IMG/VR virus record: IMGVR_UViG_3300029877_000022
Coordinates: 1-16,041 of that record
Strand: one strand, 5' to 3'
From: a virus
Taxonomy: Duplodnaviria; Heunggongvirae; Uroviricota; Caudoviricetes
DNA length: 16,041 nt
The notes beneath the pieces are model-generated. The model saw only the letters and a program-made list of their open reading frames with translations, did not search any database and was not told the origin of the DNA. The stretch's first letter is position 1, and each line of letters starts with the position of its first letter. Position numbers and translations under genes: made by a program. Below are positions 13,963-16,041 of this stretch, one piece after another.

Positions 13963-14448
13963 TTATCTGATGTTACTGCTACTGTTGCATGTGACTGTAT
14001 TTCCAAACCCTGAATTGCAGTTTGTGTAAGTTTCAACTCGTGTTGGATAGGGTTGAGTTATAACAGGCTGTCTCGCTTTTTGCTCGATCGCTTGCATTGT
14101 GTTTACAGCCTGATAATTCAATAAAGCCTGCTGGAATGCTTGGCTTTGCGCTATTTGTTGGGCTTGTTCTTGGCTTTGTAGTTGAACATAAAGATTCTGA
14201 AGCTCAAGTCTTGCCTGCGCGTCACTTATCTTGCCATCATCGACACCTTGCCCGAGCATCTTCGCAGCAAGGACATATAACTTAGGTGTTGGTGCTGATG
14301 CCATGCGTGAGTCGTTCTTCACGCTAGCATCAAGGCAATTAGCCATATCGCTAAGCTTTGGATAGCGTTGTTCGCAATTTGCCTGATAGTCGCTAACCTT
14401 TGCGCACCCTGCCAGCAGAAGCGGGATAATTAACAGTGATTTTTTCAT
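13963..14448 (-). CDS. Predicted secreted lipoprotein, function unknown (accessory/moron gene)
   Basis: Minus-strand ORF. I place the start at the ATG at 14446..14448 (MKKSLLIIPLLLAGC) because AAGGAG lies 9 nt upstream and this gives a canonical lipoprotein signal peptide with lipobox LAGC. Mature part has cysteines near both ends and a Q-rich helical middle. No recognisable homologue from memory. Confidence 0.7.
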   Translation of the reverse strand: MKKSLLIIPLLLAGCAKVSDYQANCEQRYPKLSDMANCLDASVKNDSRMASAPTPKLYVLAAKMLGQGVDDGKISDAQARLELQNLYVQLQSQEQAQQIAQSQAFQQALLNYQAVNTMQAIEQKARQPVITQPYPTRVETYTNCNSGFGNTVTCNSSSNIR

Positions 14449-14582
14449 ATGATTAACTCTCCTTATCTTTGCCATCATGGCACTGTTGGGTGTAAATGAG
14501 TTATTAACTCAATCGACAATATCTTCACGAAAATACTTTTTATTATTAAGATCTTTCTGATTCTAACAAAACGGAAAGTAAT

Positions 14583-15002
14583 ATGAAGAGGATTATCGGC
14601 GTCGTTGCTGGCGCTATATTGTTATCTGGGTGCGCAACTATTGTTGGTGATGAAACGCAGCTTGTGCAAGTGAACAGCAATCCTTCTGGCGCGAGCTTTA
14701 AGGTAAAAGATGAATCTGGTGTGATTGTTGCGCAAGGTAAGACTCCACAAGGTGTAACACTCGCCAAGTCAGATGGTAGCTATTTTGGCAAAAAGAGCTA
14801 CCAGATCACTATGGAGAAGGATGGGTACGAACCAGTTACCCTGCCAATCAAAGCCAATGCTAATGGTTGGTATATTGGTGGGAACCTTGTGTTTGGTGGG
14901 TTAATTGGTTGGCTTGCTGTAGATCCATTTAATGGTGGGATGTATACCTTGAAGCCTAAAGAGGCAAATGCATCCCTTATACCGTCCACAAAGCAAGACT
15001 AA
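14583..15002 (+). CDS. Predicted lipoprotein with PEGA-like domain, function unknown (accessory/moron gene)
   Basis: 139-aa ORF with lipoprotein signal MKRIIGVVAGAILLSGC (lipobox LSGC). Middle region NPSGASFKVKD...GKTPQGVTL...YQITMEKDGYEP resembles the PEGA domain pattern. Gly/Trp-rich C-terminal segment GWYIGGNLVFGGLIGWLAVDPFNGGMYTL. Followed by a terminator. Confidence 0.7.
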   Translation: MKRIIGVVAGAILLSGCATIVGDETQLVQVNSNPSGASFKVKDESGVIVAQGKTPQGVTLAKSDGSYFGKKSYQITMEKDGYEPVTLPIKANANGWYIGGNLVFGGLIGWLAVDPFNGGMYTLKPKEANASLIPSTKQD

Positions 15003-15009
15003 TAAATGG

Positions 15010-15033
15010 AACCCACCATCAGGTGGGTTTTTT
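15010..15033 (+). terminator. Rho-independent terminator after the lipoprotein gene, overlapping the mnt stop codon
   Basis: AACCCACC-ATCA-GGTGGGTT hairpin (15010..15029) followed by a T-run to 15033. The poor U-tract on the opposite strand suggests it acts mainly on + strand transcripts. Confidence 0.7.
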
Positions 15034-15270
15034 GTACAAATCCTTCAGCGTATCAAACACCATCTTCTTAACAAGTTCAGACTGCTCATCAGCGATGCGT
15101 TCCGCATCGTCTCGATAGCCTGAAATTTTGGATGGCCTTGATACAGCATCAGTCACTATCTGAACTAATTCTGAATTAAGAGAGCGGCCATTGGATTTGG
15201 CTCGCTGTTTTAGTTTTTCCTTTAATTCGTAAGGTAGCCGCAGATTAAATTGCGGGTCATCTCTTCCCAT
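15019..15270 (-). CDS. mnt: Mnt repressor (ribbon-helix-helix, Arc/MetJ family)
   Basis: 83-aa minus-strand ORF MGRDDPQFNLRLPYELKEKLKQRAKSNGRSLNSELVQIVTDAVSRPSKISGYRDDAERIADEQSELVKKMVFDTLKDLYKKPT. Near-identical in length and sequence to P22 Mnt as I recall it, including the N-terminal beta-strand DNA-reading motif and C-terminal tetramerisation helix. Confidence 0.9.
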   Translation of the reverse strand: MGRDDPQFNLRLPYELKEKLKQRAKSNGRSLNSELVQIVTDAVSRPSKISGYRDDAERIADEQSELVKKMVFDTLKDLYKKPT

Positions 15271-15332
15271 TCTTGATGCCTCGCTCTTGTGAGTGGATCG
15301 GCATCTTATTATCTGCTGGTTGCATCCTCAAT

Positions 15333-15349
15333 AAGACCACGGTGGTCGT
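15333..15349. promoter_or_regulatory. Mnt operator-like 17-bp palindrome
   Basis: AAGACCACGGTGGTCGT has a symmetric core GACCAC-G-GTGGTC (15335..15347). It resembles the P22 Mnt operator as I recall it (AGGTCCACGGTGGACCT). Located in the 135-bp gap between the mnt start and the tailspike start. Confidence 0.6.
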
Positions 15350-15405
15350 ATTTTTTGATTAATAATGAATCACTGCGGCCATTCCTTGTATCTGGAGCAA
15401 ATTAA

Positions 15406-15945
15406 ATGACAGACATTACAGCCAATGTTGTAGTGAGTATGCCTTCGCAACTCTTCACTATGGCTCGTTCTTTTAAAGCCGTAGCCAATGGCAAAATTTA
15501 TATCGGTAAAATTGACACTGACCCGGTAAATCCTGAAAACCAGATTCAGGTCTATGTTGAGAACGAAGATGGTTCTCACGTTCCTGTTGCACAGCCAATC
15601 GTCATCAATGCCGCAGGGTATCCAGTATATAACGGACAGATTGCCAAATTCGTTACCGTGCAAGGCCATTCTATGGCTGTTTATGATGCGTATGGTGCAC
15701 AGCAGTTCTATTTTCCTAATGTGCTGAAGTATGACCCGGATCAGTTTAAACAAAAAGTATTATCAAATGATATGCTAAATATGTCTCCTCTTTATTTTGG
15801 AGCTAAGGGGGATGGGATTAGCGATGATACTGAAGCATTTGTCGCGTTGGAAATGGATATAAAAAATAGGGTTATTGATTTAAGTGGAAGAGCATTTTTT
15901 GTTACTAAAAGTTTTATTGGAAATAGCTATATAAATGGTTCTTAG
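15406..15945 (+). pseudogene. Tailspike gene truncated by IS2 insertion; retains the P22-type head-binding domain and the start of a pectate-lyase-like receptor-binding domain
   Basis: N-terminus [59 protein letters not shown]...[15 protein letters not shown]...[10 protein letters not shown] is the conserved tailspike head-binding domain. It is followed by an AT-rich segment encoding [16 protein letters not shown]. The frame ends at a TAG that is the first 3 nt of the IS2 end (15943), so the ORF is 179 codons instead of the 600 to 700 expected. Confidence 0.85.
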
Positions 15946-16041
15946 ACTGGCCCCCTGAATCTCCAGACAACCAGTATCACTTAAATAAGTGATAGTCTTA
16001 ATACTAGTTTTTAGACTAGTCATTGGAGAACAGATGATTGA
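15943..16041 (+). mobile_element. IS2 left end (IRL, orfA promoter region and orfA start codon); element continues beyond the window end
   Basis: TAGACTGGCCCCCTGAATCTCCAGACAACCAGTATCACTTAAATAAGTGATAGTCTTAATACTAGTTTTTAGACTAGTCATTGGAGAACAGATGATTGA matches the IS2 left end as I recall it, ending with ATGATTGA (MID..., the start of the first IS2 ORF). One possible mismatch to my recalled consensus (CCAGTATC here, CCAATATC recalled). Confidence 0.85.

What the first reader, a model, noticed from the sequence alone, without database searches (positions are those of the whole stretch)
15235..15349. Possible repressor-operator co-variation: Mnt N-terminal reading residues and symmetric operator positions both differ from my recalled P22 versions
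The N-terminal strand of this Mnt reads MGRDDPQFNLRL, whereas I recall P22 Mnt as MARDDPHFNFRM; this is a change at the position equivalent to His6, a classic specificity determinant. The operator-like site AAGACCACGGTGGTCGT differs from my recalled P22 operator AGGTCCACGGTGGACCT at symmetry-related positions (4/14 and 2/16) while keeping the CCACGGTGG core. If my recollection is right, this is a natural altered-specificity repressor-operator pair and could define a distinct immunity specificity.
Basis: inference. Interest (0 to 1): 0.55.

Follow-up and report, generated by a model that had tools for sequence, protein, structure and literature searches.

The report
Mnt repressor with matching altered operator
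This E. coli prophage carries a variant of the textbook phage P22 Mnt repressor in which the key DNA-reading residue (His6 to Gln) and both halves of its binding site have changed together, a pairing kept in over a hundred related prophages even though the antirepressor gene that Mnt normally controls is missing here.

Summary
The true P22 record gives Mnt MARDDPHFNFRM and operator AGGTCCACGGTGGACCT. The window has MGRDDPQFNLRL (mnt 15019-15270, minus strand) and AAGACCACGGTGGTCGT (15333-15349), differing at operator positions 2, 4, 14 and 16.

The co-variation holds across public loci:
- Every Gln6/Asn8 Mnt with a recognisable site sits beside GACCAC-N-GTGGTC.
- Every His6 Mnt with a recognisable site sits beside GTCCAC-N-GTGGAC.
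- No mixed pairs were found, even where the C-terminal domains and spacer DNA are unrelated.
- Two further classes follow the same rule: Gln6/His8 with TACC-N5-GGTA, and Lys6/Thr8 with GGTCAC-C-GTGACC.

The site is selectively conserved. The half-sites are fixed, the centre base is free, and mnt has dN/dS of about 0.1.

The Gln strand PQFNLR is identical to Arc's. Arc Gln9 contacts the adenine at the operator position that changes here from T to A.

This is the common "mnt-only" module of phages L, ST64T and Gally. So it is a real, apparently undescribed specificity class, but not an immunity circuit in this prophage. No binding data exist. The regulatory output is inferred.

The parts
15019..15270 (-). 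mnt gene: 83-aa Mnt-family ribbon-helix-helix repressor with a C-terminal tetramerisation helix
   Evidence: ORF and translation. Pfam Arc PF03869 (E 1e-21) and Repressor_Mnt PF11423 (E 1e-18). Matches PDB 1mnt (E 7e-34) and 1qey. dN/dS is 0.08-0.11 against ST160-type homologues.
15238..15264 (-). Codons for the DNA-reading beta-strand, mature residues Arg2 to Arg10 (RDDPQFNLR). Gln6 is the codon at 15250-15252.
   Evidence: Sequence. The HMMER alignment places PQFNLR on Arc P8-Q9-F10-N11-L12-R13.
15333..15349 (.). Putative Mnt operator AAGACCACGGTGGTCGT. Core palindrome 15335-15347, centre 15341. The mnt-proximal half AAGACCAC is consensus; the distal half ACGACCAC has one outer deviation.
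   Evidence: It is a conserved island in 38 distinct intergenic sequences, with a free centre base. A single copy exists in the whole Gally genome.
15326..15331 (-). Putative Pmnt -35 hexamer TTGAGG, 1 bp from the operator edge
   Evidence: Read from the sequence. It is positionally homologous to the annotated P22 Pmnt (TTGAGA) and conserved as TTGAGG/TTGTGG. It falls below the threshold of the consensus scan.
15303..15308 (-). Putative Pmnt -10 hexamer TAAGAT (TATGAT in Salmonella relatives), with a 17-nt spacer
   Evidence: Read from the sequence and conserved in the alignment. Inferred, not mapped.
15350..15405 (+). Tailspike leader. Its last ~35 nt are shared with the P22 gene 9 leader. 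Arc, sar and ant are absent between the operator and the tailspike gene.
15406..15945 (+). 5' part of the tailspike gene (P22 gp9-type head-binding domain), cut after codon 179
15946..16041 (+). End of an IS2 element inserted in the tailspike gene
   Evidence: 99% match to annotated IS2 copies in about 4,600 E. coli genomes. Strain GMF054 matches the window at 100% only up to 15943.
15010..15029 (.). Bidirectional terminator-like hairpin between the upstream lipoprotein gene and the end of mnt
   Evidence: The equivalent hairpin is annotated in epsilon34.

Best explanation
The window carries a cognate Mnt repressor/operator pair of a specificity class different from P22's.

Binding model. A tetramer of this Mnt (Arg2, Gln6, Asn8 and Arg10 on the beta-strand) binds the single dyad-symmetric site AAGACCAC-N-GTGGTCTT, one dimer per half-site. 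Relative to P22, His6>Gln is matched by T>A at operator position 6 and A>T at position 16 (21-bp numbering; positions 4/14 of the 17-mer). It is usually also matched by G>A at 4 and C>T at 18. The CCAC-N-GTGG part is unchanged, as are Arg2, Asn8 and Arg10. Gln6 most likely reads the new adenine, as Arc Gln9 reads the A of its TAGA box.

Regulatory output. The site abuts the -35 of the mnt promoter (centre about -45) and lies 56 bp upstream of the tailspike start codon. No arc or ant is present. In this prophage the pair therefore most likely autoregulates mnt and/or limits transcription running into the tailspike gene. It does not control an antirepressor.

Shown: the sequences, the strict co-occurrence, and the selective conservation.
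Inferred: binding, the residue-base contact, the promoter, and the regulatory output.
For: 1. Exact comparison with P22.
2. Loci found by protein search (unbiased with respect to the operator). All 67 Gln6 Mnt have (A/C/T)GACCAC-N-GTGGTCT at the same place. His6 Mnt have AGGTCCAC-N-GTGGACCT.
3. Loci found by operator search. 47 of 47 Mnt-like neighbours of AGACCACNGTGGTCT have Gln6, covering 17 distinct proteins on at least six backbones with unrelated C-terminal domains. 67 of 67 neighbours of GGTCCACNGTGGACC have His6.
4. Pooled table: 80, 107 and 76 loci on the diagonal and none off it.
5. Two more classes fit the same logic: KYDEAQFHLRL with ATACC-N5-GGTAC, and ARDEPKFTFRM with AAGGTCAC-C-GTGACCTT.
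6. Prediction test. SREDPQFNFRM has Gln6 on a P22-like hydrophobic background. Its promoter-proximal half-site is GTGGTCT.
7. Footprint. 0 of 12 half-site columns are polymorphic against 51 of 138 other columns (Fisher p = 0.0085). The centre base is C12/A10/T8/G8.
8. mnt is under purifying selection, with dN/dS 0.08-0.11 at dS about 0.5.
9. PQFNLR aligns residue for residue with Arc. In the Arc-operator crystal, Gln9 contacts the A of TAGA (PMC12645479). That base is at the same distance from the dyad as the new A here (operator coordinates).
10. A single amino-acid change in Mnt is reported to alter the preferred site mainly at two adjacent positions (PMC1184061).
11. Phage L carries this same N-terminus and operator. 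It is genetically described as lacking functional immI immunity against P22 (PMC8022706). That fits non-cross-reacting specificities.
Against: - No binding or expression data exist for any Gln6 Mnt.
- Codon 6 and the operator are only about 85 bp apart, so part of the co-occurrence could be linkage. The unrelated backbones and spacers argue against this.
- The window's distal half-site deviates at one outer position (C instead of A).
- More distant proteins with Arg/Gln/Asn/Arg on the strand (Kapi1 and ES2 type, SREEPQINIR) have no GACCAC palindrome upstream. Residue 6 is therefore not the sole determinant.
- No convincing sigma-70 promoter facing the tailspike overlaps the site (and manual reading), and the P22 Pant -10 equivalent is degenerate (TGCATC). 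What the bound repressor represses is therefore unknown.
- A few His6 Mnt (L068-L072) have no operator nearby.
- The primary papers that assign His6 to specific operator positions could not be retrieved. That assignment rests on my memory.
Confidence: 0.75

Rival explanations
1. The differences from P22 are neutral drift in a decaying remnant of an immI region. Mnt and the palindrome no longer function, and the co-occurrence only reflects tight physical linkage.
For: Arc, sar and ant are gone. The phage L genome paper raises the remnant idea for its mnt (PMC8022706). The Pant -10 equivalent is degenerate (manual reading). This prophage is itself defective, with IS2 in the tailspike gene. Codon 6 and the operator are about 85 bp apart.
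Against: dN/dS is 0.08-0.11, and synonymous sites are saturated against phage L while the protein is conserved. Half-sites are invariant, the centre base takes all four values, and the flanking DNA has indels. Both half-sites changed in the same way. The same pairing recurs on unrelated backbones and with non-homologous spacers, including complete mnt-arc-ant modules.
Confidence: 0.08
2. The Gln6 Mnt is functional but has the same or broadly overlapping specificity as P22 Mnt. The operator differences would then tune affinity rather than switch specificity, so there is no heteroimmunity.
For: The CCAC-N-GTGG core and Arg2, Asn8 and Arg10 are shared. The outermost changed position (2/16) is variable even within the Gln6 class. 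No binding data exist.
Against: No mixed pair occurs in 263 loci with a recognisable site. Position 6/16 is fixed as A/T in every Gln class, including Arc's operator, and as T/A with His. Residue 6 is the classical specificity determinant (from memory: Youderian et al. 1983; Knight and Sauer). Phage L lysogens do not provide immI immunity to P22 (PMC8022706).
Confidence: 0.12
3. The palindrome acts as an RNA hairpin: an intrinsic terminator or attenuator in front of the tailspike gene on the plus strand. It would not be a protein-binding site.
For: The consensus scan flags GACCACGGTGGTC followed by GTATTTTTTG as terminator-like.
Against: The hairpin is weak (-6.3 kcal/mol, z = -0.73 against shuffles). 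The T-run is absent in the Salmonella L/ST64T type. The position is fixed relative to the mnt -35 rather than to the tailspike leader. The homologous P22 site is an experimentally defined protein-binding site (annotation).
Confidence: 0.03

Closest known systems
Phage P22 Mnt repressor and its operator Omnt (immI region)
   Same: Same two-domain protein (Arc-type RHH domain plus Mnt tetramerisation helix). The C-terminal 33 residues are 30/33 identical. There is a single 17-bp dyad-symmetric site with a CCAC-N-GTGG core, placed 1 bp from the -35 of a divergent mnt promoter.
   Different: Residue 6 is Gln, not His. The half-site is AAGACCAC, not AGGTCCAC. No Pant, arc, sar or ant lies downstream of the operator. 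The N-terminal domain is anciently diverged, with synonymous sites saturated, whereas the C-terminal domain is recent.
'mnt-only ant moron' of phages L, ST64T, ST104, ST160, SE1 and Gally
   Same: Same architecture (gene 16 - small genes - mnt - tailspike), same Mnt N-terminus and same operator. The arrangement is described in PMC2629481 and PMC8022706.
   Different: Those papers treat mnt as poorly conserved or of unknown or remnant function. As far as the searchable literature shows, they do not describe the operator or the specificity change. The window copy has one outer-position deviation and an 11-bp deletion in the tailspike leader.
Phage P22 Arc repressor and its operator (crystal structures 1PAR/1BDT)
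   Same: The beta-strand is identical (PQFNLR). An adenine lies at operator position 6 from the dyad: TAGA in the arc operator, AGAC here.
   Different: This protein keeps Mnt's Arg2 arm, the Mnt core CCAC-N-GTGG and the tetramerisation domain. It is Mnt by descent, not Arc.
Engineered altered-specificity Mnt mutants (His6>Pro 'mnt-bs'; position-6 libraries from the Sauer and Stormo laboratories)
   Same: A change at residue 6 shifts the preference at the outer operator positions (PMC1184061; details from memory).
   Different: Here the change is natural. It is fixed together with compensating symmetric operator changes and is maintained in many prophage lineages.

Membership tests
Mnt repressor family (Arc-type RHH with Mnt C-terminal tetramerisation domain) | N-terminal Arc-like ribbon-helix-helix domain | tested here: met
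   Pfam PF03869, E 1.1e-21, 76.8 bits against a cut-off of 20.4. PDB 1mnt, E 7e-34.
Mnt repressor family (Arc-type RHH with Mnt C-terminal tetramerisation domain) | C-terminal coiled-coil tetramerisation domain | tested here: met
   Pfam PF11423, E 1.4e-18. PDB 1qey aligned over residues 53-83.
Mnt repressor family (Arc-type RHH with Mnt C-terminal tetramerisation domain) | Strand residues Arg2, His6, Asn8 and Arg10, as in P22 Mnt | tested here: not met
   Arg2, Asn8 and Arg10 are present. Residue 6 is Gln. This is the variant feature. It marks a different specificity class rather than excluding homology.
Mnt repressor family (Arc-type RHH with Mnt C-terminal tetramerisation domain) | A single dyad-symmetric ~17-bp operator beside the divergent mnt promoter | tested here: met
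   One site at 15333-15349 in the window. One site in the complete Gally genome. Same register to the -35 as in P22.
Mnt repressor family (Arc-type RHH with Mnt C-terminal tetramerisation domain) | Sequence-specific binding of the tetramer to that operator | not testable with these tools
   Needs EMSA or footprinting. Supported only by co-variation and conservation.
P22 immI immunity region (mnt-Omnt/Pant-arc-sar-ant) | arc and ant genes downstream of the operator, transcribed from Pant | tested here: not met
   135 bp separate mnt from the tailspike gene, with no ORF for Arc or Ant. Relatives of the P22 type do have them.
P22 immI immunity region (mnt-Omnt/Pant-arc-sar-ant) | Operator overlaps the start site of a strong promoter (Pant) facing away from mnt | tested here: not met
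   The P22 Pant -10 TATATT corresponds to TGCATC here. The scan finds no promoter-like site in 15200-15400 on either strand.
P22 immI immunity region (mnt-Omnt/Pant-arc-sar-ant) | Prophage Mnt prevents antirepressor synthesis (maintenance of lysogeny, superinfection immunity) | not testable with these tools
   There is no ant in cis. Action in trans on incoming phages is conceivable but untested.

The most novel reading that the evidence does not exclude
Mnt-family repressors fall into at least four natural specificity classes:
- His6/Asn8 with GGTCCAC
- Gln6/Asn8 with AGACCAC
- Lys6/Thr8 with AGGTCAC
- Gln6/His8 with (G/A)TACC

Together these amount to a natural recognition code for the ribbon-helix-helix beta-strand.

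In addition, ant-less prophages such as this one keep the Gln6 Mnt/operator under selection as a stand-alone module with a function nobody has assigned. One possibility is control of tailspike expression. The other is a trans-acting shield that silences the antirepressor of incoming phages of the same operator class, so the resident prophage is not induced.
Probability: 0.3. Interest if true: 0.6.

Novelty: new variant of a known kind. Interest (0 to 1): 0.45.

Why it matters
Mnt and Arc are textbook models for DNA recognition by beta-sheets, and residue 6 of Mnt is the classic engineered specificity switch. Nature has made the same switch and fixed it together with symmetric operator changes, in at least four classes. 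This offers ready-made cognate pairs for testing recognition rules, for building orthogonal repressors, and for predicting which P22-like phages are hetero-immune at immI.

It also reframes the "orphan" mnt of phage L, ST64T and Gally-type prophages as a conserved, functional module of unknown purpose rather than a remnant. These prophages occur in about 2% of complete E. coli genomes, including the LF82 type.

In itself the finding is an incremental extension of a very well-understood system.

Tried and rejected
- Protein-pattern scan of genome contigs with the window Mnt: 600 pattern matches but no confirmed relative.
- Gapped DNA scan of genome contigs for an Arc start (CCTTTCAT) within 8-30 nt of a GACCAC-N-GTGGTC site: 27 matches, all chance hits in unrelated taxa with no RHH gene. 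No enterobacterial reference genome with a Gln6-type operator next to arc was found this way.
- Primary papers on Mnt contacts (PMC506813, PMC140065, PMC55749, PMC286564) are not held. Text searches gave only reference-list mentions.
- Search for a cultured phage with the L224-type Gln6 Mnt plus arc-ant: none. The best protein identity was 45%. Erwinia phage Midgardsormr38 matches only the ant part and has a different regulator.
- Promoter scan: no sigma-70-like site facing the tailspike near the operator. The proposed Pmnt itself scores 8/12, below the tool's threshold.
- Terminator reading of the palindrome: rejected as weak and not conserved.
- A second operator copy elsewhere in the phage: none in the window or in the whole Gally genome.
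- Cronobacter phage ES2 and Kapi1 as further test cases: their regulators share the strand's polar residues but not the operator, and it is unclear which palindrome belongs to which of their two RHH proteins. I treat this as a caveat, not as support.

Full report
**What is there.**
- The minus-strand ORF 15019..15270 encodes an 83-aa protein, MGRDDPQFNLRLPYELKEKLKQRAKSNGRSLNSELVQIVTDAVSRPSKISGYRDDAERIADEQSELVKKMVFDTLKDLYKKPT.
- It has an Arc-type ribbon-helix-helix domain (PF03869) and the Mnt tetramerisation domain (PF11423). It matches the solved Mnt fragments 1mnt and 1qey.
- Sixty-two bp upstream of its start codon lies AAGACCACGGTGGTCGT (15333-15349), with the perfect palindrome GACCAC-G-GTGGTC at its core. 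This is the only such site in the window.
- The next gene, starting at 15406 on the plus strand, is a P22-type tailspike. There is no arc, sar or ant.
- The window is an E. coli P22-like prophage. It is 100% identical to strain GMF054 up to 15943 and about 95% identical to phages Gally and vB_EcoP-720R6.

**Check of the recollection.** The P22 reference record gives Mnt MARDDPHFNFRMPMEV..., with the N-terminal Met removed, so His is residue 6. It also gives an annotated mnt operator containing AGGTCCACCGTGGACCT.
- The operators differ at 17-mer positions 2, 4, 14 and 16.
- The strands differ at residues 1, 6, 9 and 11. Only residue 6 faces the DNA.

**Is the co-variation real?**
- IMG/VR loci retrieved with the protein, and therefore blind to the operator, split cleanly. 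All 67 Gln6 proteins have (A/C/T)GACCAC-N-GTGGTCT one base from the mnt -35, directly beside the tailspike gene. His6 proteins have AGGTCCAC-N-GTGGACCT followed by arc and ant.
- Scans starting from the DNA pattern gave the converse. All 47 Mnt-like neighbours of AGACCACNGTGGTCT have Gln6, and all 67 neighbours of GGTCCACNGTGGACC have His6. The remaining pattern matches are chance hits with no RHH gene.
- The Gln6 set comprises 17 distinct proteins on at least six backbones whose C-terminal halves are unrelated. It includes complete mnt-operator-arc-ant modules (L171, L224, L235) in which the spacer between operator and mnt is not homologous to the window's.
- Pooled, 80, 107 and 76 loci sit on the diagonal of the residue/operator table and none off it. 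The few 'none' cases are point-mutated sites or loci lacking a site.

**Further classes.**
- Sf101, IME10 and VSe13-type proteins (KYDEAQFHLRL; Gln6, His8, Tyr in place of Arg2) pair with ATACC-N5-GGTAC in the same register to the -35.
- A Salmonella/Serratia class (ARDEPKFTFRM; Lys6, Thr8), with arc and ant, pairs with AAGGTCAC-C-GTGACCTT.
- As a prediction test, a protein with Gln6 on a P22-like hydrophobic background (SREDPQFNFRM) has the Gln-type promoter-proximal half-site GTGGTCT. Its distal half is degenerate.

Half-sites aligned on the dyad (21-bp numbering, positions 1-10):

| System | Half-site |
|---|---|
| P22 Mnt (His6) | ATAGGTCCAC |
| Gln6/Asn8 class | ATAAGACCAC |
| Lys6/Thr8 class | ATAAGGTCAC |
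| Sf101 class | ATAGTACCAT |
| Arc operator | ATGATAGAAG |

Position 6 is A in all three Gln-bearing systems and T with His.

**Structural rationale.** The window's PQFNLR aligns residue for residue with Arc P8-R13. A recent analysis of the Arc-operator crystal lists Gln9 (with Asn11 and Arg13) contacting the A of the TAGA box (PMC12645479). From the P22 annotation of the arc operator, that A is at position 6 from the dyad. This is the base that changes from T to A in the Gln6 Mnt operators. A single amino-acid change in Mnt is reported to shift preference mainly at two adjacent operator positions (PMC1184061). From memory, these are positions 16 and 17, the symmetry mates of 6 and 5. I could not retrieve the primary papers.

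**Is it functional or a relic?**
- In 38 distinct mnt-tailspike intergenic sequences from 107 loci, none of the 12 half-site columns is polymorphic (minor allele count of 3 or more). By contrast 51 of 138 other columns are (Fisher p = 0.0085).
- The centre base is C12/A10/T8/G8. The DNA just beyond the site on the tailspike side is full of substitutions and a 13-bp indel.
- mnt shows dN/dS of 0.08-0.11 against ST160-type genes at dS of about 0.5. Synonymous sites are saturated against phage L while the protein is conserved.
- About 2% of complete E. coli genomes (112 of 5,426) carry the module.
- This argues against the 'remnant' option raised for phage L's mnt (PMC8022706). The mnt-only arrangement itself is known (PMC2629481). 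I found no description of its operator or of specificity classes.

**How it probably works.**
- The site occupies the same register as P22 Omnt relative to the mnt promoter. Here that promoter is TTGAGG (15326-15331), a 17-nt spacer, then TAAGAT (15303-15308) on the minus strand. The site's centre is at about -45.
- The P22 Pant -10 equivalent on the other strand has degenerated (TGCATC). No promoter-like site facing the tailspike is detected.
- The whole Gally genome has only this one site.
- I therefore infer that Mnt autoregulates its own promoter and/or impedes transcription entering the tailspike gene.
- A trans role against antirepressor genes of incoming phages of the same operator class is possible. 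It is unsupported for E. coli and Salmonella: Gln6-type arc-ant modules were found only in metagenomic contigs.
- The terminator reading of the palindrome is weak: -6.3 kcal/mol, z = -0.73, and the T-run is not conserved.

**Caveats.**
- There are no binding data.
- Codon 6 and the site are closely linked.
- The window's distal half-site has C instead of the usual A at its outer position.
- Distant relatives with the same polar strand residues (Kapi1, ES2) lack this palindrome.
- A small group of His6 Mnt has no operator and is preceded by another RHH gene.

**Verdict.** The altered-specificity interpretation is well supported by comparative evidence. The immunity implication does not apply to this ant-less and, because of the IS2 insertion, defective prophage. 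It is a new variant of a very well-known system and of moderate interest.

Noticed in passing
window 15946-16041 (and tailspike ORF 15406-15945): An IS2 end is inserted in the tailspike gene after codon 179, so this prophage cannot make a functional tailspike. Strain GMF054 has the identical prophage sequence without the insertion at this point.
   Followed up: yes
window 15019-15270: There is a mosaic junction inside mnt. Against P22, codons 1-50 (DNA-binding domain) are saturated at synonymous sites (29/33.5). Codons 51-83 (tetramerisation domain) have dS 0.36 and 30/33 identical residues. Phage L has the same N-domain and operator but an unrelated C-terminal helix.
   Followed up: partly
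window 15275-15280 and 15300-15305: A conserved inverted repeat GATGCC...GGCATC brackets the mnt leader. Its promoter-side arm overlaps the putative -10. The inner part shows paired changes between the E. coli and Salmonella types (CTCAC/GCGAG against CTTAC/GTGAG), and an analogous repeat exists in Sf101-type loci. It is absent from P22. Function unknown.
   Followed up: no
window ~15375-15385 (tailspike leader): Compared with most relatives, the window and its subgroup lack 11 bp (CGCCGCAGCAT) between two GCCGCAG direct repeats in the tailspike leader. This removes part of a hairpin-forming stretch that is conserved as far as P22's gene 9 leader.
   Followed up: no
window 13963-14478 (-) and 14583-15002 (+): Two small genes with lipoprotein-like N-termini fill the rest of the 'ant moron'. 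The second is a homologue of epsilon34 gene 15 and has only a sub-threshold PEGA-domain match. Both would be candidates for prophage-expressed envelope or exclusion functions.
   Followed up: partly
L087, L088, L091-L170 (Sf101/IME10/VSe13 type): A third Mnt class (KYDEAQFHLRL) has a different dyad site, ATACC-N5-GGTAC, at the same place. It is also directly beside the tailspike gene with no arc or ant.
   Followed up: partly
L413-L415 (Salmonella), L419 (Serratia): A fourth Mnt class (ARDEPKFTFRM; Lys6, Thr8) has the site AAGGTCAC-C-GTGACCTT and a complete arc-ant module. This is a candidate third immI hetero-immunity group in Salmonella prophages.
   Followed up: partly
L068-L072 (IMG/VR contigs): A P22-type His6 Mnt has no P22-type operator anywhere in the 3.2-kb locus. 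It is preceded in tandem by a second, unrelated RHH gene (MPMSDRKYKNPQVNLRLP...) and a divergent small RHH gene. This looks like a replaced control region.
   Followed up: partly
L171, L224, L235 (IMG/VR), L416-L418 (Logan): These are full mnt-operator-arc-ant modules with a Gln6 Mnt and an AGACCAC-type site. Their Arc homologues have PNFNLR or PQFNLR strands. Hosts are unknown, and no cultured phage in the collection matches.
   Followed up: partly
L001 1095-1235 (P22, between ant terminator and gene 9): P22 carries two direct copies of aaaattcaccgtagcca(c/t)gct upstream of gene 9. The second copy continues into the leader shared with the mnt-only phages. This hints at how arc-ant was inserted or deleted.
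   Followed up: no
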